From positions 588,977 through 652,976 of the forward strand of contig CAZSUC010000001.1 of assembly GCA_964610055.1 (NCBI GenBank): 64,000 nt of DNA, written 5' to 3'. The translations under genes and the position numbers were made by a program. How positions within the stretch are numbered: position 1 is the stretch's first letter; each line of letters starts with the position of its first letter. This document shows, piece by piece, positions 31,660 through 61,466 of this stretch. The DNA is from an uncultured Candidatus Saccharibacteria bacterium (GTDB lineage Bacteria; Patescibacteriota; Andersenbacteria; UBA10190). Below the pieces are notes generated by a model. The model worked only from the letters and a program-made list of their open reading frames with translations. It did not search any database and was not told the origin of the DNA.

Positions 31660-33930
31660 ATGTCGCCTTTTTCTCGTCCTTACTTTGCCTTATTAATTGT
31701 TAGCGCTTTAGCGCTCTGGCCGCTTTTTTTCGGCCGTTTTTACGGTATTGGCGATACACGCTCCGTTTATATTCCCATCGAGCATTTTTTTGCTGAGCAA
31801 CAACGGCACTTTAATTTACCGGCCTGGATGCCAGACACTGCTTGGGGTTTTCCGGTAATTGCTTCTGCTCAAATCGGTTTCTTTTATCCGCCTCTTTTAC
31901 TGACACGCTTCTTACCTATCTTTATTTACCTGCCGTTATTACTCTGGCTCCACATCTTTTTTCTCGGTATCGGCGCCTATCGTTTGGCCCGAACCCTAAA
32001 TATTAGTCAAAACGGCGCCCTGATTACCGCCCTATCCATTGCTCTTAACGCCTTTCTTTGGCAGCACTTAACCCACCTAAACATTATTTTTGCTTTGGCT
32101 TGGTTTCCTTGGCAATTACTCGCCGCTCATTACTTAGCCAGATCACATCGACCTAATTTCAAACAATTTGCCGGCTTAGTTTTCACTTTAGGCCTCCCGT
32201 TTTTAGCTGGCCAACTTCAAGTTCCTTTTCTCACCGCTCTTTTCTCTACCATTTATTATTTCGTTTCTTTACCCAAAAAGCCTTTCCCCTCTCGACATCT
32301 CCTCATTTTCCTCGGCGCAACTCTTTTGACTATTACTCTCACCGCCGTCCAAACATTTCCCACCCTAGAGCTCACATTCCTTTCCAGCCGTGGATCAACT
32401 AATGAATTTTCTTTGGAACGAGCTAATCAACATAGTTTTCCTATTTATCATCTACCCACCTTACTTTTTCCACGCTTTTTCGGCTCAGATAATACTTATT
32501 GGGGGAAACGTATTGAAATAGAATACGGCTTTTTCTTCGGCGTCATTCCGCTATGCCTCAGCTTTATTGCTATATTCAACAAATCACGTCGTTACCGTTT
32601 CTGGATTATCAGCGGCTTCATAGCTTTTCTGTTAAGCCTGGGCGAATTTTCTCCTTTTCGCTTAGTTGGCTTAGAGCCATCGCTCTGGTACTTTTCTGCT
32701 CCCGCCCGTTGGCTATTCTTCACCGTTTTTTCTGGATCAATCCTTGCTGGTTTTGGTTATGATCTTTTGCCTAATATCTCACCTCGTTACCTGCGCATCC
32801 TTAAATCAACTATTGTAACCATATTAAGCTGCGTCATTTTATATAATCTCGTCCTTTGGCTCTTGCCGGAAAATTTTGCTTCTTATGTTCTAACCTGGTT
32901 GCAATCACAAAATCTCACCGGCGCTCGCGATTCAGCCTATTATTTAGATAAGATTAATTCCTTACTCTCCTCTGCAAAACACACGGGCTTATCACTTGCT
33001 TCGCCATATACTTACATCACTCTCATTCCTTTGCTCGCCATTCCATGGCTCTTCCAAAAACATCACTCGTGGCTTATTCCTCTCACAGCTATTGAACTCA
33101 TCTTAATTGCCAGTACGGCCAATCCAAGTGTTACTTGGTCCAATATTCTAACTCCTCCTGCCAGCATCTCTGCCCTTCCTCAAAGTGTTACCAGCGATCA
33201 CGCTCGCATCATTTCAATCTCAGCTCCCGGCGATACAGGGCTTTGGCTAACTAACCCTGAAACCCGTGCCGATACCGCTCGTCGCGAACAATATCGTCAA
33301 CAACTCGAACCACTCACTCACTCACTTTTTAATCTTGCCGGTTCTCAATGGCCCGCCTCGCTGGATCTACAATCTCAGGCACATACTTTAGAAAATTTAC
33401 TCGAATCACGCCAAGATCAACTATACATTGATTCTGACAAAGCCGCTGCTCTCAATATCGGTGCTGCCTTAATTGCCAACGAAGCTCCCCACACTGTTTC
33501 AGAAGTACTACCCCAAAATATTGCACCGAATATCTTCTTGTATTCCTTCTCTCCTCAACCTCGCGCTTCTCTTTTAACTGAAGACCAAACCGAATTAGCG
33601 CTTCCATACGACAACACTAATCCTAATCACCAAACTTATACCCTCTCATCATCTACTCCCGCGACCCTTATTATTCGCGACACCTGGTACCCTGGTTGGC
33701 AAGCCACACTTGACGACCAACCCGTTAACATTGATACCTATAACAATATTTTCCGTTCTGTTTCGGTTCCCTCCGGATCACATACCGTTTCTTTCACCTA
33801 TCATCCTACTTGGCTTTATTACGGTCTAGCTATTTCGCTTACCACTCTTGGTTTTCTAATATTTGTGCTGATGTACAATAATCATATCTACACTGTTCCC
33901 TTTATTTTAAGGAGGAAGACCATTGGCTGA
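31660..33930 (+). CDS. YfhO-family membrane protein
   Basis: 756 aa. The N-terminal region is paralogous to 23569-26346 (GIGDTRSVYIPIEHFFAEQQ...NLPAWMPDTAWGFPVIA versus LDDLKLFYYPIETIYAEFQ...HLPLWSNVFGFGHPLLA). Confidence 0.7.
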   Translation: MSPFSRPYFALLIVSALALWPLFFGRFYGIGDTRSVYIPIEHFFAEQQRHFNLPAWMPDTAWGFPVIASAQIGFFYPPLLLTRFLPIFIYLPLLLWLHIFFLGIGAYRLARTLNISQNGALITALSIALNAFLWQHLTHLNIIFALAWFPWQLLAAHYLARSHRPNFKQFAGLVFTLGLPFLAGQLQVPFLTALFSTIYYFVSLPKKPFPSRHLLIFLGATLLTITLTAVQTFPTLELTFLSSRGSTNEFSLERANQHSFPIYHLPTLLFPRFFGSDNTYWGKRIEIEYGFFFGVIPLCLSFIAIFNKSRRYRFWIISGFIAFLLSLGEFSPFRLVGLEPSLWYFSAPARWLFFTVFSGSILAGFGYDLLPNISPRYLRILKSTIVTILSCVILYNLVLWLLPENFASYVLTWLQSQNLTGARDSAYYLDKINSLLSSAKHTGLSLASPYTYITLIPLLAIPWLFQKHHSWLIPLTAIELILIASTANPSVTWSNILTPPASISALPQSVTSDHARIISISAPGDTGLWLTNPETRADTARREQYRQQLEPLTHSLFNLAGSQWPASLDLQSQAHTLENLLESRQDQLYIDSDKAAALNIGAALIANEAPHTVSEVLPQNIAPNIFLYSFSPQPRASLLTEDQTELALPYDNTNPNHQTYTLSSSTPATLIIRDTWYPGWQATLDDQPVNIDTYNNIFRSVSVPSGSHTVSFTYHPTWLYYGLAISLTTLGFLIFVLMYNNHIYTVPFILRRKTIG

Positions 33931-34126
33931 TGACAAAGACCAAGACGAACGAAACCGACGACTTACAGAAGCCCTTGCGCCGTTAGGGCGAGGCGAGCTT
34001 CCTGACGGTACACCCATTGACCTAGCCGCCATCTCTGAACGTGCAAATCGGAAAGCCTGGATTTTTGCGCGCCGGCTTAGAGATAGCGCAGTACGTGACA
34101 ACCGCCGATACAAGGGTCAACACTAG
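33923..34126 (+). CDS. Small basic hypothetical protein, TTG start (paralog 1)
   Basis: TTG at 33923 lies 8 nt after AGGAGG. The 67-aa product shares ERNR(R/Q)LT.AL.PL...DL.AI... and a C-terminal YKG with the ORF at 34285. A strong intrinsic terminator follows. Confidence 0.55.
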   Translation: MADDKDQDERNRRLTEALAPLGRGELPDGTPIDLAAISERANRKAWIFARRLRDSAVRDNRRYKGQH

Positions 34127-34141
34127 CCCACCTCCTTACGT

Positions 34142-34169
34142 CCCGTGCCACATCGGCACGGGCTTTTTT
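34142..34169 (+). terminator. Rho-independent terminator after small paralog 1
   Basis: CCCGTGCC-ACATC-GGCACGGG 8-bp GC-rich stem followed by C+TTTTTT. Confidence 0.75.
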
Positions 34170-34284: not shown

Positions 34285-34476
34285 TTGGATAATGAAAACG
34301 AACGAAACCGACAACTTACCGTGGCTCTCAATCCATTAAGGACAGGTCTATCATTATCTGACCTCTCCGCAATCGCTGACCATGCCACAGACGACGCCAT
34401 GTCGCATGCCAAAGCAGTTCGTTCAGGAACAGCAAGGACCAGAGCTAAACACAGGTTAGGCCCATACAAAGGCTGA
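34285..34476 (+). CDS. Small basic hypothetical protein, TTG start (paralog 2)
   Basis: Same SD and TTG context as 33923 (AGGAGGATAAACCGTTGGAT). 63 aa, with protein-level similarity to paralog 1. Confidence 0.55.
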   Translation: MDNENERNRQLTVALNPLRTGLSLSDLSAIADHATDDAMSHAKAVRSGTARTRAKHRLGPYKG

Positions 34477-34814: not shown

Positions 34815-34841
34815 CCACCAAGCCAGTCTTGGTGGATTTTT
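34815..34841 (+). terminator. Rho-independent terminator between the convergent 34510 (+) and 34840 (-) genes
   Basis: CCACCAAG-CCAGT-CTTGGTGG 8-bp stem followed by ATTTTT. Confidence 0.65.
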
Positions 34842-36135
34842 ATATCCACATCCTATCAATCAATTCTCGCGGTTGTCCGTACCGTAATCGATTTACCGCC
34901 TGCACCTCTACCTTCCCTATAGCCGTTTCTAAACTTAACGGCGGCAAACTCTGCCCCCGAAATGCTCGGTACGTAATTCCGGCCTGAGTCAGACGGATAA
35001 AAAAGTGATATGGCGGCAAGTCCTGAAAATCCTCCACTTGAATCGCCTGCCCCTTATCCCACGATGTTTGCTGAAAGGCCGGCAGTAACGCTTCCGCATC
35101 ATTTGCCCCTATTTGAAAAGCCACCAACGTTCCTACATTACCCAACACCGCCTCTCGCACCTCGTCAGTTAATTGCGCCACATACTGATTAGTTAAATGC
35201 ACAGCTAATCCGTACTTGCGCGCTTCCGACAACATAGAAATGAATGTTTCCGTCATCACATTCTGAAATTCATCGACGTATAAATAAAAGGGAACCCTGT
35301 CTTCGACCGGCATATCGGCACGACGCATTATCGCCGCCTGTAACTTTGCCATCAAAATCAATCCCAACATATATGAATTTAATTCTCCCAGTCTTCCTTT
35401 AGACAAATTCACAATCAAAATTTTGCCATGATTCACAATCTCATCAAACGCCAAAGCATTGCGCTTCTGACCGATGATATTGCGCATCGTCGTATTTGTC
35501 ATAAAGCGACCAAACTTGGAAGTAAAATAATTCAACATTTCCGAGCGATGAAACTGCGCGGTTTTTGCCATCTGCTCTTCCCAAAATGACAATACGACCC
35601 GATCTCGCACATGGCGACGTTTTTCTTGCTCAAATTTTTCATCCGTAAATAAGCGCGGAATCTCAATCAAAGTTCCGCCCGCCGGATCGGCCATAACTGT
35701 TAAAGCCGCATTTCGCATCCAGTGTTCAAACTGCGGCCCAATAATTCCCTGCTGATCCGGATCAAATAGTTTATAAAATATCTGAATCGCCTCGGCCACC
35801 AAAAAATCTTTCTCACTTTCAGTTTTACCATCCAATAAGTTCAAGCCTAATGGCCATTCCGTATCAGCCGGATCAAACAACACTACATCATCCAACCGCT
35901 CCGCCGGAATATTATTTAACAGCCAATCGCACACTTCTCCATGCGGATCAACAAAACAACACCCCGCCCCAGCCTGAATATCCTGCAAAATCATATTTTG
36001 ATACAAAGTCGATTTACCCGTCCCAGTTTTTCCAATGCAATACATATGTCGCATCCGATCTTGCGGTGCTGTTTGAATACTGCGCATTTGATTGCGAAAT
36101 TCAGCGTGTCCAATTACATTCATTCTTTCTGTCAT
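34840..36135 (-). CDS. Soluble VirD4/TraD/TraG-like P-loop ATPase (FtsK-HerA superfamily, type IV coupling-protein-like)
   Basis: Walker A CIGKTGTGKST, downstream FVDPHGE (DPxGE motif) and Walker B FYLYVDEFQNV. No N-terminal TM segment. Terminal gene of a 4-gene minus-strand operon. Confidence 0.65.
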   Translation of the reverse strand: MTERMNVIGHAEFRNQMRSIQTAPQDRMRHMYCIGKTGTGKSTLYQNMILQDIQAGAGCCFVDPHGEVCDWLLNNIPAERLDDVVLFDPADTEWPLGLNLLDGKTESEKDFLVAEAIQIFYKLFDPDQQGIIGPQFEHWMRNAALTVMADPAGGTLIEIPRLFTDEKFEQEKRRHVRDRVVLSFWEEQMAKTAQFHRSEMLNYFTSKFGRFMTNTTMRNIIGQKRNALAFDEIVNHGKILIVNLSKGRLGELNSYMLGLILMAKLQAAIMRRADMPVEDRVPFYLYVDEFQNVMTETFISMLSEARKYGLAVHLTNQYVAQLTDEVREAVLGNVGTLVAFQIGANDAEALLPAFQQTSWDKGQAIQVEDFQDLPPYHFFIRLTQAGITYRAFRGQSLPPLSLETAIGKVEVQAVNRLRYGQPRELIDRMWI

Positions 36136-48068: not shown

Positions 48069-48953
48069 TTATGAAACAGTCTGGTCAGCTACCTCAAGCA
48101 GATAATCTCCATACCCACTTTTTTTCAATGGCTCCGCTAAAGCAATGAGTTGTTCTCGAGTGATATACCCCATCCGATAAGCCGTTTCTTCAATACAGCC
48201 CACTTTCAAACCCTGTCTCTTTTCAATCACTTGGACAAAATTCGCCGCCTGCAACAAAGAATCATGGGTTCCCGAGTCTAACCACGCCGTCCCACGATTT
48301 AATTTCGCTACCCGCAAATTCCCCGCTTGCAAATACAGCTTATTAATATCTGTAATCTCTAATTCGCCTCGCGCTGACGGCTTTAAGTTTCGCGCCATCT
48401 CCACCACTGCGTTGTCGTAAAAATATATTCCTGGCACCGCATATGACGATTTCGGTTGCAATGGCTTTTCTTCAATACTCAACACCTTACCTACCTCATC
48501 AAAATCAACTACTCCATACCTTTCCGGATCAGACACGTGATAGGCAAACACTAACCCTCCGCCTTGGTTCTCTACTTCTTGCTTCGCTTCTTGTAACACT
48601 TCTTGAATTCCGCCGCCGTAAAAAATATTATCGCCTAGAATCAATGCCACGCTTTCTTGACTAACAAAATCCGCACCAATCACAAAAGCCTGCGCTAAAC
48701 CTTCTGGCCGCGGTTGTTCGGCATATGTAAAATGCATGCCTAATTGCTGACCATCGCCCAGCAGCTTCTTGAACAACGGCAAATCATACGGTGTTGAAAT
48801 AATTAAAACTTCCTGAATCCCAGCCAAAATCATCATTGATAAGGGATAATAAATCATTGGTTTGTCGTAGACTGGAACCAATTGTTTACTTACTGCAATT
48901 GTTGCCGGATTTAATCTTGTCCCTGCCCCACCTGCTAAAATAATCCCTTTCAT
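48069..48953 (-). CDS. rfbA: Glucose-1-phosphate thymidylyltransferase
   Basis: [36 protein letters not shown] is the canonical RmlA N-terminus. 294 aa. Confidence 0.9.
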
Positions 48954-49077
48954 AAGTCTTCTGCTTAATTAAGACTAACCTATAATTATAACACTTTTAC
49001 CCTAATATTGTCAATAGGAATAGGGGAGTCCCCTCCGCCATTTATCATATACTTATCGCCTGCCGGCTACCACTCCT

Positions 49078-55150: not shown

Positions 55151-55495
55151 TCACTTCTCCTGTTGCTTAACTAAAAACGCATCTAACCATTCACGCGCTT
55201 CTTCCGACTGCATTTTTATATCCGGACTCTTAGCTATACTTTCCATAACATCGATCTCTTGAGTAGCGGTATCTTGCCAATCAGTCCGAGCAGTTAAACG
55301 TAATGTTTCTTTCTCAGCCGATATTTTCTGGCGCGGAACATTCAACCATGCAATTCCGATTACCCCCATTCCGAGCACAGCTAAAAAGAATAGTTTCTTT
55401 GGTTCCGCTTCAAAATATATACCTACCGCCAATCCCCACGTTGCCCCTACTAAGATCCAAGTTCCCAGCGCTAACTTTTCCCATTGATTCATCAT
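55151..55495 (-). CDS. Small two-TM membrane protein (hypothetical)
   Basis: 114-aa ORF immediately downstream of lepA with two hydrophobic helices. Confidence 0.45.
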   Translation of the reverse strand: MMNQWEKLALGTWILVGATWGLAVGIYFEAEPKKLFFLAVLGMGVIGIAWLNVPRQKISAEKETLRLTARTDWQDTATQEIDVMESIAKSPDIKMQSEEAREWLDAFLVKQQEK

Positions 55496-55500
55496 ATTTC

Positions 55501-57273
55501 TTACCTTTTTAAAACTGCTAAATACGCTTCCGGCGGAATATCCACTGAACCATGTTCGCTCATACGCTTCTTCCCTTTTTTCTGCTTTTCTAATAATTTG
55601 CGCTTACGTGAATAATCACCACCGTACAAATGTCCCGTGACATCTTTCCGCATTGCCGGCAAAGTTTCCCGCGCGACAATACTTCCTCCAATCGCTGCTT
55701 GCAAAGGTACTGCAAATAATTGCCGCGGTAATACTTCCTTTAATTTCGCTACCAGGCGCCTGCCTGTTGCCTCTGCCTTACTACGCGCCACAATTACCGC
55801 CAGTGCTTCTACCTCCACTTTATTCACTAACAAAGACAGCTTCACCACCTCGGCCGGTCGCCACTCTTTCATCTCATAGCTCATTGAGCCATACCCCGCT
55901 GTCACTGACTTTAATTTGTCATAAAAATCAACCACTAATTCACGCATCGGTATTAAATAGGTTAACTGCACCCGCTCCCCCTCTAAATGCTGTTGATTTA
56001 CAATTTCCGCTTCTCGATCCTGCATTACTTCAAAGACGGCTCCCATGTACCCAACTGGCGTTAAAATATCAACCTGAGCATACCGCTCTTCAATCGCTTC
56101 AATCTGAGATGGGTCCGGAAATTCTACCGGCGTCGCCGCTTCCATATCCTCACCGTTTCGCAACTTAATTCGATACGCCACACTCGGAGTCGTAATCACT
56201 AAATCTAAATTATATTCTCGACGTAAACGCTCTTGAATAATTTCCATATGCAGCATCCCTAAAAATCCACATCGAAACCCTTGTCCTAAAGCTTCGCTTC
56301 TCTCTTGTAATGCCGTTAGGCTCGCATCGTTTAACATCAATTCACTAATCGCATCTTTTAATAAGGGAAAATCATCACCCCGAGCAGGAAAAATTCCGGC
56401 AAACACTTTGGGCTGCGGAATTCTAAAACCCGGCAAAGCTTGTAAACCTGACCGCCGACTTGCCAAAGCAATCGTATCGCCCACCCGCGCTTGTCGCACG
56501 TCTTTTAACCCCGTTGCTATATATCCAATTTCTCCCGCATCAATCATTTGATCAGGATGCCATTCGGGTGCAAATGAACCAACTTCCACTGCCCGATCAG
56601 TCGCCCCTGTCCCTAGAAAAATCACTTCATCTCGTGCTGATACTTTACCTTCTATGACCCGCACGTAAGTTACAACTCCTTTATAATCATCGTACACAGA
56701 ATCAAAAATAAGGGCTCGCAAAGGCTTAGTATTGTCCTGCTGTGCCGCCGGTATTCGCTGCACCACTGCATCCAAAACTTCTTTGACTCCTTCTCCTGTC
56801 TTAGCTGAAATCTTGAGAATATCAGTCGCCTTGCCACCCAATAAAGCGAGTATCTCTTGAGTGACTCGCGGTACATCTGCTGCCGGTAAATCCACTTTAT
56901 TAATCACTGGAATAATCTCCAAATTATTCTCAATCGCAAAATACAAATTAGAAATAGTTTGCGCTTGCACACCCTGGGTTGCATCCACCAGTAATACGGC
57001 TCCCTCCACCGCCTGCAAACTCCGACTCACCTCATATTGAAAATCAACATGACCCGGCGTATCAATCAAATTCAGCATGACCCCATTCCACTGCATGCGC
57101 ACTGGCTGTAACTTAATTGTAATTCCCTTTTCCCTCTCTAATTCCATTGAATCTAATAGCTGTGCTCGCATCTTCCGACTCTCCACTGTTCCGGTCAGCT
57201 CTAACATCCGGTCGGCTAAAGTCGACTTCCCGTGATCCACATGCGCAATAATGCAAAAATTACGTATCTCCAT
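55501..57273 (-). CDS. lepA: Translation elongation factor 4
   Basis: MEIRNFCIIAHVDHGKSTLADR (G1), DTPGHVDF (G3), NKVD (G4) and the LepA-specific C-terminal domain. The ORF-track N-terminal extension is not supported. Confidence 0.95.
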   Translation of the reverse strand: MEIRNFCIIAHVDHGKSTLADRMLELTGTVESRKMRAQLLDSMELEREKGITIKLQPVRMQWNGVMLNLIDTPGHVDFQYEVSRSLQAVEGAVLLVDATQGVQAQTISNLYFAIENNLEIIPVINKVDLPAADVPRVTQEILALLGGKATDILKISAKTGEGVKEVLDAVVQRIPAAQQDNTKPLRALIFDSVYDDYKGVVTYVRVIEGKVSARDEVIFLGTGATDRAVEVGSFAPEWHPDQMIDAGEIGYIATGLKDVRQARVGDTIALASRRSGLQALPGFRIPQPKVFAGIFPARGDDFPLLKDAISELMLNDASLTALQERSEALGQGFRCGFLGMLHMEIIQERLRREYNLDLVITTPSVAYRIKLRNGEDMEAATPVEFPDPSQIEAIEERYAQVDILTPVGYMGAVFEVMQDREAEIVNQQHLEGERVQLTYLIPMRELVVDFYDKLKSVTAGYGSMSYEMKEWRPAEVVKLSLLVNKVEVEALAVIVARSKAEATGRRLVAKLKEVLPRQLFAVPLQAAIGGSIVARETLPAMRKDVTGHLYGGDYSRKRKLLEKQKKGKKRMSEHGSVDIPPEAYLAVLKR

Positions 57274-57333
57274 AGAATACCGCCCAGCATACCAATTCAC
57301 GCCCTTTTCGCCAATATCTCTCTTGTTCATCAT

Positions 57334-57385
57334 AAAAAAACGCCCCAAGGACAATCCGACCGGGCCATCGGGAAAGCCTTGGGGC
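57334..57385 (-). terminator. Rho-independent terminator (T2), 60 nt upstream of the lepA start
   Basis: On the minus strand: GCCCCAAGG...CCTTGGGGC 9-bp stem with a nested CCGA/TCGG stem, followed by GTTTTTTT. Confidence 0.7.
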
Positions 57386-57485
57386 ACACATGAAGGAACA
57401 ACGCAACAGGGTAAAGAGAGCTATGCGCATGGCACCAGCCGCTCGGTCTCAACTTAAACCACACGCATAGCCCACACGTAGTTTT

Positions 57486-57513
57486 ATCATATCCCGCCTA
57501 CTCCAGATGTCAA
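57486..57513 (-). promoter_or_regulatory. Sigma70-like promoter (P2) immediately after T1
   Basis: TTGACA, 16-nt spacer, TATGAT on the minus strand. Confidence 0.5.
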
Positions 57514-57519
57514 CCAAAG

Positions 57520-57589
57520 AAAAAAACCGCCGAAAAGCGATTGTGTGGCACGGCGGGAGAATATCGCCACACAAAGAGCTTTTCGACGG
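57520..57589 (-). terminator. Strong rho-independent terminator (T1) in the lepA upstream region
   Basis: On the minus strand: CCGTCGAAAAGC...(inner 8-bp stem TGTGTGGC/GCCACACA)...GCTTTTCGGCGG, a 12-bp outer stem with one mismatch, followed by TTTTTTT. Confidence 0.7.
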
Positions 57590-57846
57590 CAACCGGGAAA
57601 GGGTAATCTCGCATCTCTTGCAAATTTGAGTCACCATTCTCAAGCTAGCCCGGCGGAGTCATGTACGACCTCCTTTCTAAAATGAGATCAGCCGACAGAC
57701 AACGCAAGGGGCCCTACCAACTTCAAAAAAAGAAAGAAAAAGAGAACAATATAACCGCCCGGAGGGGTTCATGAGAACCTACTTGGGGCACTAGCAGTCC
57801 CCTACAACACCCTCCAGACGGCTCGCACGACAGGTGCTGTTAAGTT

Positions 57847-57875
57847 CTTATACTCTTACCCGCTTTTTTTGTCAA
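57847..57875 (-). promoter_or_regulatory. Sigma70-like promoter (P1) downstream of murJ
   Basis: TTGACA, 17-nt spacer, TATAAG, read on the minus strand. It transcribes into a structured non-coding region. Confidence 0.5.
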
Positions 57876-57896
57876 CGGTCAAATTATCGTCTACCC

Positions 57897-59519
57897 TTAT
57901 TCCAACATTCCACCAAACCTTGGCGTCTCGGTCCCTGCATCTAATTTAACTTTCCATTTCCGCGGCAAATATTTTCGCAACACTTCTAACTCCTCACATC
58001 GGAATAACATACATAACCCTAAATAGGCCATTGCCCCGCCTACAAAGGCTCCAACCATCTGTACGCTCACACCCCAAAACCGCGTCATATTCACCCAAGG
58101 CTCAATTGCATACTTTAATCCTTGTACCACCATACCAGCCAATCCGCTCGCCACCGCGATCCTGATCATACTTGCCACCACCGCTTTATCATCAAACCCA
58201 TTCAGTTCTATATGCAGTTTTCCTAGCAATAACACCAAAGTTATAATCGCTGATGCCGAAAAAGCCAAGGCCAATCCTTCCACCCCCATACGCGGCGACA
58301 ACCAAATTGCCAATCCAATATTCGCCGCCATACTAATCAAAGAAATAACAACTGGTGTTGCTGTATTTTGTCTGACATAAAAAGCCCTAATCAACAACGG
58401 AGCGGCTGCTTGAGCAAATAAACTAACCAACAATAGACCTAAAATTGAATACGTCATAATAGTATCATTCCAATCAAACGCCCCATCACCAAACAAAACT
58501 CGCACAATTTGAGCGCGTAATAAATAAGCAAAAGCCGCGGTTGGTACTGTTAAAAAGATAATATAACGAAATGTTCGCGTTAGCGTCATCCGAAAATCTT
58601 TCGCCTGCTTCCGCGCCCATTGTTCGGCTAATGTTGGAAAAGCCGCTTGCGCAAATGCCAATCCAAAAATACCCACCGGTACGCTTTGAATGTTATTCGC
58701 CAAATGAAATGTCGCAATACTGCCAGCCGAAAGAGTCGAGCCAATAATGGTTACTAAAAACAAATTCATTTGTTGGCCTGCCATACCAAACATTCTCGGT
58801 ATAATCATCCGCCGTAAAGTTTTTACGTCTTTTGATTTCCATTTCATAACCGGACGCCACCGCCATCCCAACCGCCAAACACTCGGCAATTGAACTAAAG
58901 CATGCAAAGCTGCTCCTAACACCACCCCCCATCCTAACCCCGCCACTCCTAACCATGGCACCAGCCACACCACACCAACAATAATACCGATGTTGTAAAC
59001 AATCGGAGCCAACGCATACGCCACAAATCGCTTAAATGAATTCAGCACCCCTGAAAACATAAAGCTAATACTCAATAAAATTGGCTGTAATGCCATTATG
59101 CGAGATAAAGTGATCGTCATTTCTAACTTATCTCCCATAAAACCAGGTGTAATTAAAGGCACAATCCAACGCGCCCCTAATGCATATCCTGCGCTCAACA
59201 CTATCACTGTTAACAACACAATATTTAAGACCGACAAAGAGAAGTCAAAGGCCTCCTCATGATTACCTTTTTTACCTTTAACTAATTTCTCCGTAAACAA
59301 CGGAATGAAGGCTGCCGATAAAGCGCCCATCACTACTAAATTAAAAATCAAATCCGGCAAACGGAAAGCTGCAACAAACGCATCAAAAATATCGCCGGCC
59401 CCAAAAGTCGTAGTCATCACCCGTTCCCGTAACAACCCCACGACACGCGACCCTAACGACGCTACCGAGAGCCACAAAGCTGCTGAAATTAATTTTTGTG
59501 TATTGCCGTTCTTAATCAC
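57897..59519 (-). CDS. murJ: Lipid II flippase MurJ/MviN
   Basis: 540 aa, 14 predicted TM helices, N-terminus LGSRVVGLLRERVMTTTFGAGDIFDAFVAAFRLPD typical of MurJ. Confidence 0.85.
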   Translation of the reverse strand: MIKNGNTQKLISAALWLSVASLGSRVVGLLRERVMTTTFGAGDIFDAFVAAFRLPDLIFNLVVMGALSAAFIPLFTEKLVKGKKGNHEEAFDFSLSVLNIVLLTVIVLSAGYALGARWIVPLITPGFMGDKLEMTITLSRIMALQPILLSISFMFSGVLNSFKRFVAYALAPIVYNIGIIVGVVWLVPWLGVAGLGWGVVLGAALHALVQLPSVWRLGWRWRPVMKWKSKDVKTLRRMIIPRMFGMAGQQMNLFLVTIIGSTLSAGSIATFHLANNIQSVPVGIFGLAFAQAAFPTLAEQWARKQAKDFRMTLTRTFRYIIFLTVPTAAFAYLLRAQIVRVLFGDGAFDWNDTIMTYSILGLLLVSLFAQAAAPLLIRAFYVRQNTATPVVISLISMAANIGLAIWLSPRMGVEGLALAFSASAIITLVLLLGKLHIELNGFDDKAVVASMIRIAVASGLAGMVVQGLKYAIEPWVNMTRFWGVSVQMVGAFVGGAMAYLGLCMLFRCEELEVLRKYLPRKWKVKLDAGTETPRFGGMLE

Positions 59520-59522
59520 ACC

Positions 59523-61466
59523 TTATTGCCTTTCTAAAACCGCCCCTACCAACACGTCTTGGTTAAGCTCTCCTCGATAAACCAACTCTTGGCTGCTTGT
59601 TGTTGTAATTCCGTCATGAGGGATAGTATGCACAATCCCTATGTTTTCGGGAAGCCGTATTTCTACTCGCACTTCTGTTCGATTATCACCTGGTTGTTTT
59701 ACTACATAAGTTTCGTATCTCTCTGCTGGATCTAACAAATCCGGTAAGTCCGCTGCGCCCGGTAATCGATAGCGGTAAATTCCCACTGTCGTTGCTCCCG
59801 GTTTAGTTATCATCCAATTAGCAAAAAACTTATATCCACTTTCTTGACCAATCACCGTGCCGCTAACATCCGCCACTTGCGCTCGTTGCCATTCCGCTAA
59901 ATCAGGATCAGCCGTTAATTCCTCTGGCAATTCTGGAAAATCATATCGCGGCACATCTGCAGCTTCTGTAAAACCTCGTGCCTCTATTAACTCTGCCTCA
60001 TCCGGTACTAATACTCGCTGCCAAACTACATTATCTTTATACGCTGGGTTTTCGCCATCAGGATATTCACGATCCAATATCTCTTCCGGACCCCGATGCG
60101 TTCGCCTAATCGTAACTGTCACTTCCACATCGCCATTGCTTTGCACATCGCTGCGATAATCAATCTCTTGATCCATAAACTGATCACTCTTATGCCCTCC
60201 AATATTTGTATTATTTACATAAAGCAAGCCTAACTGTTCCTCAGGCAACTCTCCACTCCAATTTAACTCATGTACTCGCGCCTGTTCCTCTGTTCTTGTT
60301 AAATTAACTAATAAACTTTTTTTCTGAATTGCATTATTCATGACATTTAACACATCTAATACTGCTTTCGAATCTTGTGCGAACACTCGATTCAACAAAA
60401 CCGGCGTTAAGTCAGCCAAAAATTGTTTCGGCCGATTAACTTCTTTATCGTAATCATATGTCACCTCGTCTTGAGTTAGCGCAATGAAGTTATCCTCATC
60501 CACCGTCACGTTATAAGTTGGCATTTCAATTGGACCAGTAATCGCTAACAAATCTTGAATAATCTCTGGAGTAATTGCAATGACTCCATCCACCTTTGAT
60601 CCACCCTCCTTTTCCCAAAACGACTGAATTTTCTCTGCACTTAAGTCAAAATCAACAAACCAATTAGCATCTCGTAAGTACCATCTATCCGTAATTCCTC
60701 GCATCGGATCAGGTGGTGCAATATATTCTTTTAATTGTCCGTCCGGATCATATACTGTTTGCACATCTACTTCTTCCACCTGACCTCGACTAACATTTAC
60801 CACTCCTAGACTTCCAATAAATCCACCTGTTGGCCGCAATTCATGATTGTTTTGAAACACTAACAAATAACGTCGATCTTCTTGCGCTCCTAAAACTGAT
60901 AACAATAAATCACTTTGTTCATTGAAAGATTGAATTGATGCTAATAATTCTGGCACTACTTCTTTCAACATTTGCGCAGGCTCTTTTACGGATGCTGGCA
61001 ACAACAAAGTATTAACGCCATTTAAGTTTTCGACTGCGTCTTCCAACGCCGCTTGTGCCACTCCCATATTCTCTTGTGTAATCTCCAGCGCGCCAACCAA
61101 AGTCCTTTCCGACTTTTGATTACTACCGATTACCGACCCACTTGAAGCCATTAAAACAGACAACGCTTCCGTAACTCTCTGCCCTGCCTCAGTTACACTT
61201 TCCGCTGCCGCTAACATATTATCGCCTGAACGGACTGTGCCTGTAACATCTAAAGTTTCTAGAACTAATCGCGATGCTGATAAAGCATCCCGCAGTTGCT
61301 CTCGCGCTTCCATCAATTGCTCCTTGGCGTTAGCAAAATTTTCACTCCCAGTTTCAAAATCGCTTTGCGATACCGCCGCCTGCGCAGCTGCCACTTCATT
61401 CAAAGCCTCTTTCGTGCGTCTAATAATTGGGCCAATTGCAACATACCCTCGACCCAAAGCTTGCAA
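59523..61466 (-). CDS. DUF4012-domain protein, membrane-anchored extracytoplasmic part (apparently frameshifted from its N-terminal region)
   Basis: YLLVFQNNHELRPTGGFIGSLG is the DUF4012 signature. The frame stays open upstream through a TM helix (LVSNALILIIGCGIGWLAL) to a stop inside the A9 tract with no canonical start. The ORF-track start is TTG. Confidence 0.6.
   Translation of the reverse strand: MQALGRGYVAIGPIIRRTKEALNEVAAAQAAVSQSDFETGSENFANAKEQLMEAREQLRDALSASRLVLETLDVTGTVRSGDNMLAAAESVTEAGQRVTEALSVLMASSGSVIGSNQKSERTLVGALEITQENMGVAQAALEDAVENLNGVNTLLLPASVKEPAQMLKEVVPELLASIQSFNEQSDLLLSVLGAQEDRRYLLVFQNNHELRPTGGFIGSLGVVNVSRGQVEEVDVQTVYDPDGQLKEYIAPPDPMRGITDRWYLRDANWFVDFDLSAEKIQSFWEKEGGSKVDGVIAITPEIIQDLLAITGPIEMPTYNVTVDEDNFIALTQDEVTYDYDKEVNRPKQFLADLTPVLLNRVFAQDSKAVLDVLNVMNNAIQKKSLLVNLTRTEEQARVHELNWSGELPEEQLGLLYVNNTNIGGHKSDQFMDQEIDYRSDVQSNGDVEVTVTIRRTHRGPEEILDREYPDGENPAYKDNVVWQRVLVPDEAELIEARGFTEAADVPRYDFPELPEELTADPDLAEWQRAQVADVSGTVIGQESGYKFFANWMITKPGATTVGIYRYRLPGAADLPDLLDPAERYETYVVKQPGDNRTEVRVEIRLPENIGIVHTIPHDGITTTSSQELVYRGELNQDVLVGAVLERQ

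What the first reader, a model, noticed from the sequence alone, without database searches (positions are those of the whole stretch)
57274..57896. 620-bp non-coding region upstream of lepA with two promoter-hairpin-terminator units and a PPG mini-ORF
On the minus strand: promoter P1 (TTGACA-17-TATAAG), a three-way-junction hairpin (GGAGGG.../GGGG-loop-CCCC/GTTC-TCAT-GAAC/...CCCTCC), a 22-nt pyrimidine tract, a perfect SD (AAAGGAGGT) driving a 5-codon ORF (MTPPG stop), then a long terminator T1 with U7. Immediately after comes promoter P2 (TTGACA-16-TATGAT), a 13-bp stem with two G-U pairs, and a second terminator T2 with U7 60 nt before the lepA ATG. This looks like one or two small RNAs, or a tandem transcription-attenuation leader for lepA. 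The Pro-Pro-Gly mini-ORF is a classic ribosome-stalling motif. A stall-sensing leader in front of the EF4 (LepA) gene would be a plausible but undescribed regulatory logic.
Basis: partly seen in the sequence, partly recalled or inferred. Interest (0 to 1): 0.6.

Follow-up and report, generated by a model that had tools for sequence, protein, structure and literature searches.

The report
Two small-RNA cassettes with Pro-Pro mini-ORF
The 623-base gap in front of the lepA gene of this tiny uncultured bacterium holds two self-contained promoter-to-terminator units, probably small RNA genes rather than a lepA leader, and the first carries a five-codon Pro-Pro reading frame that is kept in two related genomes, so ribosome pausing on it is probably selected for.

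Summary
The described features are all in the sequence. P1 and P2 are two of only four near-consensus sigma-70 promoters in the 64 kb window, and each is followed by a stable hairpin domain and a strong U7 terminator. No Rfam family, tRNA or tmRNA matches.

The tandem lepA attenuation leader reading is not supported. lepA has its own -10 box 12 nt before the ATG, conserved in relatives. Most relatives have a short lepA upstream region or carry zwf and an 86-aa gene there. No antiterminator structure appears in folding, with or without a stalled ribosome.

The stalling idea gains partial support. A strong SD, an ATG, Pro-Pro at or next to the C-terminus, a UAG stop and a terminator recur in two related genomes (MHPP*, MMTSGVPP*) inside otherwise unalignable DNA. 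The genome itself rarely uses SD sequences.

Best reading: two lineage-specific small-RNA genes in a gene-loss scar, the first with a translated, pause-prone mini-ORF of unknown output. This is a new variant of known kinds and of moderate interest. A link to lepA remains possible but unshown.

The parts
57897..59519 (-). murJ (lipid II flippase), the upstream gene. There is no terminator between its stop codon and P1.
   Evidence: Pfam PF03023, E = 5.7e-93.
57847..57875 (-). Promoter P1: TTGACA, 17 nt spacer, TATAAG. It matches 11 of 12 consensus positions, but the last base of the -10 box is G.
   Evidence: Not listed by the scanner because of the final G.
57754..57822 (-). 5' three-way-junction domain of RNA1. 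P1 is GCCGUCUGGAGGG paired with CCCUCCGGGCGGU, with two hairpins (GGGG...CCCC and GGUUC-UCAU-GAACC).
   Evidence: MFE and centroid folds. Absent from L083, and only loosely paralleled in L088.
57725..57749 (-). CU-rich single-stranded tract. The 15-mer TTGTTCTCTTTTTCT is identical in L083.
57668..57676 (-). Strong Shine-Dalgarno sequence AAAGGAGGT, 6 nt from the ATG.
   Evidence: Strong SDs are rare in this window.
57645..57662 (-). Mini-ORF ATG ACT CCG CCG GGC TAG, encoding MTPPG*.
   Evidence: Counterparts are MHPP* in L081 and MMTSGVPP* in L088.
57520..57590 (-). Intrinsic terminator T1, a bipartite stem of 13 + 10 bp followed by U7.
   Evidence: Alignable to the terminator that precedes lepA in L081.
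57486..57513 (-). Promoter P2: TTGACA, 16 nt spacer, TATGAT (11 of 12).
57418..57473 (-). RNA2 hairpin of 16 bp, whose 5' arm contains AUGCGUGUGG.
   Evidence: The same arm sequence in a hairpin occurs in L081 (14 anchored pairs kept, 2 with both sides changed) and, shorter, in L088.
57386..57417 (-). Unpaired CU-rich linker of RNA2 (UCUUUACCCUGUUGCGUUGUUCCUUCAUGUGU).
   Evidence: A similar UUCUUCAU stretch lies in L081 between the hairpin and the terminator.
57334..57385 (-). Intrinsic terminator T2 (GCCCCAAGG...CCUUGGGGC followed by U7).
57286..57314 (-). lepA's own promoter P3: TTGGCG, 17 nt spacer, TATGCT. The -10 box lies 12 nt before the ATG.
   Evidence: Read. The -10 box is conserved at this spacing in L081, L084, L085, L089 and L091.
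55501..57273 (-). lepA (EF4), 590 aa.
   Evidence: Pfam, homolog lengths, start check.

Best explanation
The murJ-lepA spacer of this Andersenbacteria-like (Patescibacteria) genome carries two autonomous transcription units on the lepA strand. RNA1 is about 325 nt, running from P1 to T1. RNA2 is about 145 nt, running from P2 to T2. lepA is transcribed from a third, proximal promoter that gives a leader of only a few nucleotides. The units are lineage-specific small-RNA genes. They occupy the place where related genomes carry zwf and an 86-aa gene on the opposite strand.

RNA1 is more than a plain non-coding RNA. A rare strong SD loads a ribosome onto a 5-codon ORF whose only conserved content is Pro-Pro at or next to the C-terminus and a UAG stop. 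Pro-Pro-Gly elongation and Pro-Pro-stop termination are both intrinsically slow.

Inferred mechanism: the mini-ORF parks a ribosome on RNA1, and how long it stays depends on EF-P, RF1 and prolyl-tRNA capacity. That occupancy sets the fate of RNA1, meaning its protection from nucleases or the exposure of its CU-rich tract, rather than switching a terminator. RNA2 has the classic trans-acting sRNA layout of a 5' hairpin, an unpaired CU-rich stretch and a terminator.

Shown here: the sequence signals, their rarity, conservation of the mini-ORF design and of the RNA2 hairpin, lepA's own promoter, and the lack of an antiterminator. Inferred only: that the RNAs are made, that the ORF is translated and stalls, and what the output is.
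For: Promoters and terminators:
- P1 and P2 are 2 of only 4 near-consensus promoters in 128 kb of strand, and each is followed by a strong hairpin plus U7 terminator.
- The units fold with z about -3.9 and -3.8, against a genome background mean of -0.16, sd 1.14.

lepA has its own promoter:
- A -10 box TAT(A/G)CT sits 12-13 nt before the lepA ATG in the window, L081, L084, L085, L089 and L091.

The mini-ORF design is conserved:
- Window AGGAGG-6-ATG ACT CCG CCG GGC TAG; L081 AGGAGG-6-ATG CAT CCG CCG TAG; L088 AAGGAG-8-ATG ATG ACG AGC GGC GTT CCC CCC TAG.
- The SD, start codon, Pro-Pro and UAG are kept. The spacer, codon 2, ORF length and the Pro codons themselves (CCG versus CCC) differ. This is the pattern expected if translation, not RNA sequence, is under selection.
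- The surrounding DNA is unalignable.
- Background: apart from these three, only 2 of about 296 SD-led mini-ORFs in roughly 1.4 Mb of strand searched end in PP or PPx. In the four non-coding spacers it is 3 of 9.
- The genome is SD-poor. Only 7 of 53 ORFs have any SD-like tetramer, so a perfect SD is exceptional.
- A C-terminal Pro-Pro interferes with termination and arrests ribosomes in all contexts tested in E. coli (PMC3834316).

The RNA2 hairpin is conserved between the window and L081: 14 anchored pairs are kept, 2 with both sides changed and 3 with one side changed.
Against: - There is no expression data of any kind.
- Only three or four genomes carry the element, and they are related by descent, so recurrence reflects conservation rather than independent origin.
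- In L083 the homologous SD-ATG opens a 15-codon ORF without Pro-Pro.
- Module order differs between genomes. In L088 the hairpin is upstream of the mini-ORF, while in the window and L081 it is downstream.
- The three-way junction is not conserved.
- The P1 -10 box lacks the final T, so RNA1 could be mainly the murJ 3' UTR.
- No consistent pairing partner for the SD region was found.
- The central part of RNA1 is not unusually structured.
- No output for the parked ribosome could be identified.
Confidence: 0.45

Rival explanations
1. Stall-sensing attenuator for lepA. A ribosome pausing at Pro-Pro(-Gly or -stop) on the mini-ORF lowers termination at T1 (and T2). Upstream transcription then reads into lepA when Pro-Pro translation is compromised.
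For: - The PP mini-ORF is always followed by an intrinsic terminator, and always lies upstream of and co-oriented with lepA, in the three genomes that have it.
- In L088 the arrangement is simple: promoter, about 340 nt, mini-ORF, a terminator 14 nt after the stop, then about 65 nt to the lepA ATG.
- In L081 the long terminator hairpin starts 10 nt after the stop, right at the leading edge of a ribosome paused on the stop codon.
Against: - Terminators stay intact in folds with the ribosome footprint constrained, and the pairing of the terminator 5' arm does not change with ribosome position.
- In the window the stop-to-T1 distance is 54 nt, and P2, RNA2 and T2 intervene before lepA.
- lepA has a conserved proximal -10 box.
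- The element is absent upstream of lepA in the other Andersenbacteria-like loci examined (L082, L084-L087, L089, L091, L095, L105).
- Co-location in three genomes is explained by shared synteny.
Confidence: 0.13
2. Gene-loss scar with ordinary punctuation. After zwf and the 86-aa gene were lost, the spacer drifted. T1 is simply the murJ operon terminator. P2 and P3 are a duplicated lepA promoter. The hairpins and the mini-ORF have no function of their own.
For: - The ancestral layout murJ, then zwf and the 86-aa gene on the opposite strand, then lepA, is seen in L084, L091 and L105/L106. L087 still keeps the 86-aa gene.
- There is a weak zwf-like remnant in L081 (28 bits).
- Sequence turnover is very fast.
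- The T1-P2 and T2-P3 junctions both resemble the single terminator-promoter junction of L081, which points to a local duplication.
- The P1 -10 box is imperfect.
Against: - The exact SD, ATG, Pro-Pro and UAG design is retained across 72-87% LepA-identity relatives while the flanks are randomised.
- The RNA2 hairpin is maintained with compensatory changes.
- Two of the four best promoters in the window are here.
- No Pfam signal appears in any reading frame of the spacers.
Confidence: 0.2
3. Purely base-pairing small RNAs. The unpaired CU-rich stretches act as seeds against purine-rich translation-initiation regions of other mRNAs. These are UUGUUCUCUUUUUCU in RNA1 and UUGUUCCUUCAU in RNA2, with related UUGUUC motifs in L083 and L088. 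The mini-ORF would be incidental.
For: - RNA2 has the hairpin, single-stranded linker and terminator layout of a trans-acting sRNA.
- The 15-mer of the RNA1 tract is identical in L083.
- UUGUUC(C/U)(C/U)U recurs in the window RNA1 and RNA2, L083 and L088.
Against: - Short CU-rich motifs are low-complexity, and pairwise 9-mer sharing between 600-nt sequences is expected by chance.
- No target search was done, because only 64 kb of a roughly 700 kb genome is available.
- It does not explain why the SD, ATG, Pro-Pro and UAG are conserved.
Confidence: 0.15

Closest known systems
Ribosome-mediated transcription attenuators and stalling leader peptides (trpL, pheL, pyrL; ermCL; tnaC, which arrests at Pro-stop)
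   Same: A very short, efficiently initiated ORF whose informative codons cause ribosome pausing, followed by an intrinsic terminator and placed upstream of a gene on the same strand.
   Different: - No mutually exclusive antiterminator and terminator pairing was found.
- The downstream gene has its own promoter.
- In the window, another promoter and terminator unit intervenes.
- The element is not conserved with the gene it would regulate.
C-terminal Pro-Pro termination arrest (E. coli YbeL-PP) and EF-P-dependent Pro-Pro-Gly stalling
   Same: L081 and L088 end in Pro-Pro-stop, and the window has Pro-Pro-Gly-stop. These are the two best-known proline stalling contexts (PMC3834316 for PP-stop; PPG from general knowledge of EF-P).
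   Different: The known cases are motifs within ordinary proteins, where the stall is a burden. Here the motif is essentially the whole ORF, which suggests the pause itself is the purpose. Stalling was not tested.
Ribosome or 30S 'parking' RNA stabilisers (STAB-SD of cryIIIA; erythromycin-stalled ribosome in the ermC leader). Recalled from memory, not checked here.
   Same: A strong SD (GAAAGGAGG in both STAB-SD and the window) or a stalled ribosome on a short ORF inside a non-coding stretch, which would shield downstream RNA.
   Different: Those elements sit at the 5' end of long mRNAs in Firmicutes. Here the SD is about 170 nt into a roughly 325-nt RNA with nothing but a terminator downstream. 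No decay data exist.
Rare strong SD in SD-blind lineages (rpsU of Flavobacteriia)
   Same: In a genome that hardly uses SD sequences, a single very strong SD marks a specially regulated initiation site (PMC7797042, PMC9976891).
   Different: That case is a ribosomal-protein gene with autoregulation through bS21. Here the ORF is 5 codons long, and the state of the 16S anti-SD in this organism is unknown.
Dual-function small RNAs (SgrS/SgrT, RNAIII/hld, SR1/SR1P). From general knowledge.
   Same: A small terminator-ended transcript that both has structured or seed regions and contains a translated short ORF.
   Different: The known peptides are 26-43 aa and act as peptides. A 4-8 residue product with only Pro-Pro conserved is unlikely to act as a peptide.

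Membership tests
Any Rfam family (riboswitches, leaders, 6S, SRP, RNase P, tmRNA, known sRNAs) | Covariance-model match at or near the gathering score. | tested here: not met
   - 0 hits at gathering score on the whole window.
- Only a 21.9-bit mir-4867 noise hit at E <= 10 on 57150-58050.
- Nothing relevant in L081, L083 or L088.
- ARAGORN found no tRNA or tmRNA.
Ribosome-mediated transcription attenuator (leader-peptide type) | A short leader ORF with regulatory codons and a functional ribosome-binding site. | tested here: met
   AAAGGAGGT, 6 nt, then ATG..CCG CCG GGC TAG. Counterparts exist in L081 and L088.
Ribosome-mediated transcription attenuator (leader-peptide type) | An intrinsic terminator downstream of the leader ORF. 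| tested here: met
   T1, and the terminators in L081 and L088.
Ribosome-mediated transcription attenuator (leader-peptide type) | An alternative antiterminator structure whose formation depends on ribosome position. | tested here: not met
   Constrained folds keep the terminators, and pairing of the 5' arm is unchanged with or without the footprint. This rests on thermodynamic prediction only.
Ribosome-mediated transcription attenuator (leader-peptide type) | The regulated gene follows directly and depends on read-through, and the leader co-occurs with that gene across relatives. | tested here: not met
   - lepA has a conserved -10 box 12 nt upstream of the ATG.
- P2, RNA2 and T2 intervene in the window.
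- Nine other related lepA loci lack the element.
Riboswitch or cis-regulatory aptamer (for the three-way junction) | A conserved aptamer architecture with covariation across homologs. | tested here: not met
   The three-way junction is absent from L083, whose transcript starts right at the CU tract. It is replaced by a different hairpin in L088. There is no Rfam match.
Independent bacterial small-RNA gene | Own promoter and own Rho-independent terminator in an intergenic region. | tested here: met
   P1 with T1 and P2 with T2. This is sequence evidence only.
Independent bacterial small-RNA gene | Structure conserved with compensatory changes in relatives. | tested here: inconclusive
   The RNA2 hairpin keeps 14 anchored pairs between the window and L081, with 2 double and 3 single changes. 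Only 2-3 sequences are available, and the automatic alignment was poor. RNA1 as a whole is not alignable.
Independent bacterial small-RNA gene | A discrete transcript is detected. | not testable with these tools
   No transcriptome data are accessible.
Proline-dependent ribosome stalling motif (EF-P clients; PP-stop arrest) | A Pro-Pro-Gly or C-terminal Pro-Pro sequence. | tested here: met
   MTPPG*, MHPP*, MMTSGVPP*. PP-stop arrest is documented in PMC3834316.
Proline-dependent ribosome stalling motif (EF-P clients; PP-stop arrest) | A measured pause or arrest on this mRNA. | not testable with these tools
   This needs toeprinting or ribosome profiling. Very short nascent chains may behave differently from the tested proteins.
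Repeated or mobile intergenic element (REP- or MITE-like) | Multiple copies in the genome. | tested here: not met
   No second copy in the 64 kb window at word size 7. No plasmid match. The rest of the genome was not available.
zwf (G6PD) pseudogene remnant | Residual protein similarity on the opposite strand. | tested here: not met
   - Window: only hits of 18 bits or less.
- Pfam on six-frame translations found nothing.
- L081 has a weak 28-bit match in the expected orientation.

The most novel reading that the evidence does not exclude
The SD-led Pro-Pro mini-ORF is a dedicated sensor of the cell's ability to get through proline stalls, or more generally of a ribosome sub-population with an accessible anti-SD in an SD-poor organism. 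Its read-out is coupled to the neighbouring lepA (EF4) gene, a factor that acts on stalled or immature ribosomes. That would be a previously undescribed feedback loop between ribosome stalling and EF4 supply in Patescibacteria.
Probability: 0.1. Interest if true: 0.7.

Novelty: new variant of a known kind. Interest (0 to 1): 0.4.

Why it matters
Patescibacteria have genomes of about 0.7 Mb with very little non-coding DNA, and almost nothing is known about their regulatory RNAs. A 600-nt spacer packed with two strong promoters, two strong terminators and a selected Pro-Pro mini-ORF is therefore likely to do something.

If the mini-ORF is a parked-ribosome device, it would be a minimal natural example of a stalling motif used as the whole functional content of an ORF. 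It could be tested directly in vitro with and without EF-P.

If the link to lepA were real, it would give EF4, whose physiological role is still debated, a regulatory input. If none of this holds, the region is still useful as a documented case of how a gene-loss scar is re-punctuated with promoters and terminators.

It also corrects an over-extended lepA call: the product on record in the searched protein collection is 628 aa, and that ORF runs through terminator T2.

Tried and rejected
- **Known RNA families.** Rfam at gathering score on the whole window, and at E <= 10 on the region and on three relatives, found nothing. ARAGORN found no tRNA or tmRNA.
- **Plasmid-borne or mobile origin.** No plasmid match, and no repeat of the region elsewhere in the window.
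- **zwf or 86-aa pseudogene.** tblastn with three G6PD proteins and the 86/94-aa protein gave only noise for the window and 28 bits for L081. Pfam on six-frame translations found nothing. It did show that the long 'spacer' in L087 is really the 86-aa gene.
- **Read-through of the UAG into a longer ORF.** The continuation has no similarity to anything and no conservation, so this was dropped.
- **lepA starting at ATG 57333/57330 or GTG 57387.** Rejected from homolog lengths and the in-frame stop in L081.
- **Antiterminator search.** Nascent-transcript and footprint-constrained folds found none.
- **SD sequestration by the CU tract.** Duplex energies are no better than shuffles, except in L088, where the SD region pairs with the terminator tail.
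- **Finding more homologs.** The genome-contig scan with LepA was swamped by distant LepA sequences of 55% identity or less. The metagenome scan with the lineage-specific 114-aa neighbour gave only 7 loci, none with the element. Viral-contig scans with the mini-ORF pattern gave 8 hits, which I judged (without inspecting them) to be about the number expected by chance for 17 specified bases, and 0 hits.
- **Whole-spacer alignment by MAFFT.** The result was unreliable. Pairwise RNAalifold of the RNA2 hairpin mis-aligned the 3' arm, so pairs were read from single-sequence folds anchored on the shared 9-mer.
- **A z = -5.4 folding outlier at 38000-37851** from the coarse scan shrank to -2.7 with 200 shuffles and was dropped.
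- **A wrong argument of my own.** I first reasoned that lepA lacking an SD argues against translation from a read-through transcript. I withdrew this after finding that the genome is SD-poor throughout.
Full report
**Context**

The window comes from a Patescibacteria genome. The best named LepA relatives are Candidatus Andersenbacteria, and the proteins on record sit on a 698,565-nt contig. On the minus strand the gene order is:

- a DUF4012 protein (59523-61466)
- murJ (57897-59519)
- the 623-nt spacer
- lepA (55501-57273)
- a 114-aa protein
- dTDP-rhamnose genes

lepA starts at ATG 57273. Most homologs are 589-597 aa, and the closest relative, L081, has an in-frame stop 12 nt upstream of the homologous ATG. 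The protein on record is 628 aa and starts at GTG 57387, which runs through terminator T2. It is almost certainly over-extended.

**Observation**

The exact coordinates are in the parts list.

- The P1 -10 box (TATAAG) lacks the nearly invariant final T, so the scanner did not list it.
- The RNA2 stem is 16 bp in the fold, not 13.

The signals exceed chance:
- Only four sites in the whole window, counting both strands, match TTGACA-N16-18-TATAAT at 11 or more of 12 positions. Two of them are P1 and P2, 362 nt apart on the same strand.
- The two units fold with z = -3.95 and -3.79. Genome-wide 150-nt windows have mean z -0.16, sd 1.14, and about 2% fall below -3.
- The excess stability lies in the three-way junction, the RNA2 hairpin and the two terminators. 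The centre of RNA1 (57800-57551), which includes the mini-ORF, is not unusually structured.

**It is not a known RNA**

- Rfam gives no hit at gathering score in 64 kb.
- At E <= 10 the region gives only a microRNA noise hit, and three related spacers give nothing relevant.
- ARAGORN finds no tRNA or tmRNA.
- There is no match to plasmids and no second copy in the window.

**It is not a conserved lepA leader**

I retrieved lepA loci from relatives with 64-87% LepA identity.

*lepA has its own promoter.* A -10 box TAT(A/G)CT sits 12-13 nt before the ATG in six loci: the window, L081, L084, L085, L089 and L091. In the window this box belongs to P3 (TTGGCG-17-TATGCT, 57314-57286), downstream of T2. 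lepA mRNA from this promoter would have a leader of only a few nucleotides.

*Long non-coding spacers are the exception.* The common layout is murJ, then zwf and an 86-aa Cys-rich gene on the opposite strand, then lepA (L084, L091, L105/L106). L087 keeps the 86-aa gene (50% identity, E = 4e-31). L082, L085 and L086 have other neighbours and short upstream regions. Only the window, L081, L083 and L088 carry spacers of 590-700 nt with nothing coding in them; L081 reaches its contig end after 700 nt.

The spacer is therefore a lineage-specific replacement of zwf and the 86-aa gene. Residual similarity to those genes is absent in the window and only weak in L081 (28 bits).

**What is conserved inside the spacers**

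DNA alignment of the four spacers is essentially impossible. This is expected for neutral sequence at this divergence, and it makes the few conserved islands informative.

*Island 1, the mini-ORF.*

| Genome | SD | Gap to ATG | ORF | Peptide |
|---|---|---|---|---|
| Window | AGGAGG | 6 nt | ATG ACT CCG CCG GGC TAG | MTPPG* |
| L081 (87% LepA identity) | AGGAGG | 6 nt | ATG CAT CCG CCG TAG | MHPP* |
| L088 (72%) | AAGGAG | 8 nt | ATG ATG ACG AGC GGC GTT CCC CCC TAG | MMTSGVPP* |

- The kept features are the strong SD at ideal spacing, the ATG, Pro-Pro at or next to the C-terminus, the UAG stop and a downstream intrinsic terminator.
- The varying features are the SD-ATG spacer, the other codons, the ORF length and the Pro codons themselves (CCG versus CCC). 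That pattern points to selection on translation rather than on RNA sequence.
- Elsewhere in the sequence scanned at that point, about 1.4 Mb of strand, only 2 of about 296 SD-led mini-ORFs end in PP or PPx. In the four spacers the figure is 3 of 9.
- L083 (74%) has the homologous SD-ATG, and GGGAAGCTCGAGAAAAGG matches the window's GGGCTAGCTTGAGAATGG. It has lost the Pro codons and the stop, giving a 15-codon ORF.
- The perfect SD is itself unusual. Taking longest-ORF starts, only 7 of 53 ORFs in the window have any SD-like tetramer 4-12 nt upstream, and one has a 5-mer.

*Island 2, the RNA2 hairpin.* Its 5' arm, AUGCGUGUGG, recurs in a hairpin in L081. All 14 anchored pairs are kept, 2 with both sides changed and 3 with one side changed. 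It recurs in a shorter hairpin in L088.

*Island 3, the CU tract.* The 15-mer TTGTTCTCTTTTTCT is identical in L083, directly after that spacer's promoter.

*Island 4, the terminator-promoter junctions.* T1-P2 and T2-P3 in the window both resemble the single terminator-promoter junction before lepA in L081, which suggests a local duplication.

Module order is not fixed. In the window and L081 the mini-ORF unit comes first and the hairpin unit second. In L088 the hairpin lies upstream of the mini-ORF in a single transcript.

**Mechanism**

A C-terminal Pro-Pro impairs termination and arrests ribosomes in every context tested in E. coli (PMC3834316). Pro-Pro-Gly is the classic EF-P-dependent elongation stall (general knowledge). 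Selection for a ribosome pause on this ORF is therefore a reasonable inference.

I tested whether such a pause could act as an attenuator.
- With the 28-nt footprint of a ribosome at the pause site held unpaired, the terminators of the window, L081 and L088 remain in the minimum-energy fold.
- In nascent-transcript folds, where the 3' arm is not yet made, the partner of the terminator 5' arm does not change with ribosome position.
- The stop-to-terminator distance is 54 nt in the window, 10 nt in L081 and 14 nt in L088.
- The SD region has no consistent sequestering partner. Only in L088 does it pair unusually well, with the terminator tail.

The classical attenuator design is therefore not met, at least by thermodynamic prediction.

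My best reading, with confidence of about 0.45, has three parts:
- There are two autonomous small-RNA genes.
- RNA1 carries a translated, pause-prone mini-ORF that parks a ribosome on the RNA.
- The output is more likely the fate or accessibility of RNA1 than read-through into lepA.

RNA2 has the standard layout of a trans-acting sRNA. The rivals are a lepA attenuator (0.13), a functionless gene-loss scar with ordinary punctuation (0.20) and purely base-pairing sRNAs (0.15, not exclusive with the best reading).

**Comparison with known systems and novelty**

The element works most like a stalling leader peptide or a ribosome-parking RNA stabiliser. It fails the defining tests for membership of the leader-peptide attenuator class: there is no antiterminator, the downstream gene has its own promoter, and the element does not co-occur with that gene. 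It matches no curated RNA family.

The rare strong SD in an SD-poor genome recalls rpsU in Flavobacteriia (PMC7797042, PMC9976891). That is an analogy only.

I rate it a new variant of known kinds. Interest is moderate: the conservation of a 'nothing but Pro-Pro' ORF is unusual and testable in vitro. Against that, the sample is three related genomes, there is no expression evidence, and the link to lepA that made the finding attractive is not supported.

Noticed in passing
window 57286-57291 (-); L081, L084, L085, L089, L091 at -18 to -13 relative to the lepA ATG: lepA in this clade has a conserved -10 box TAT(A/G)CT exactly 12-13 nt before the ATG and no SD. This implies a leader of only a few nucleotides, close to a leaderless mRNA.
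   Followed up: partly
window 55501-57387 (-): The LepA product on record in the searched protein collection is 628 aa, starting at GTG 57387. That ORF runs through terminator T2 and promoter P3. Homolog lengths and the stop codon in L081 place the real start at ATG 57273 (590 aa).
   Followed up: yes
window 55151-55495 (-); homologs in L082-L089: The 114-aa protein immediately downstream of lepA has no Pfam domain. It is syntenic across Andersenbacteria-like genomes, with a variable N-terminal part that looks hydrophobic by eye (not tested) and an invariant C-terminal motif A-R-x-W-L-D-x-F-L-x-x-Q-Q.
   Followed up: partly
L084 1469-2926, L091 247-2072, L105 600-2401, L087 about 2054-2340 (opposite strand): Relatives carry zwf (G6PD) and an 86-aa Cys-rich (CPxxY...CPKC) gene between murJ and lepA on the opposite strand. 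The window lineage has lost both, and L087 has lost only zwf.
   Followed up: partly
whole window (ORF starts): The genome is SD-poor. Only 7 of 53 ORFs (longest-ORF starts) have any SD-like tetramer upstream. The exceptions with strong SDs are the mini-ORF, the 431-aa gene at 34840-36135 (-) and the two small ORFs in the next item.
   Followed up: partly
window 33923-34126 (+) and 34285-34476 (+): There are two paralogous small ORFs of 67 and 63 aa (shared motif (D/N)ERNR(R/Q)LT.AL.PL). Each has an AGGAGG SD and a TTG start, and they lie in a roughly 900-nt gene-poor stretch next to a P-loop NTPase-like 431-aa gene. A plus-strand terminator lies at 34142-34162. This may be a mobile or defence island.
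   Followed up: no
window 48985-49014 (-): This is the only perfect 12 of 12 sigma-70 consensus promoter in the window (TTGACA-18-TATAAT). It lies about 30 nt upstream of the ORF that starts at 48953.
   Followed up: no
L088 934-1030: In L088 the SD region of the mini-ORF (GAAAAGGAGAGCUU) is almost perfectly complementary to the 3' arm and U-tract of the downstream terminator. The duplex energy is -17.8 kcal/mol, against a shuffle mean of -11.0, sd 1.6. This was not seen in the window or in L081.
   Followed up: partly
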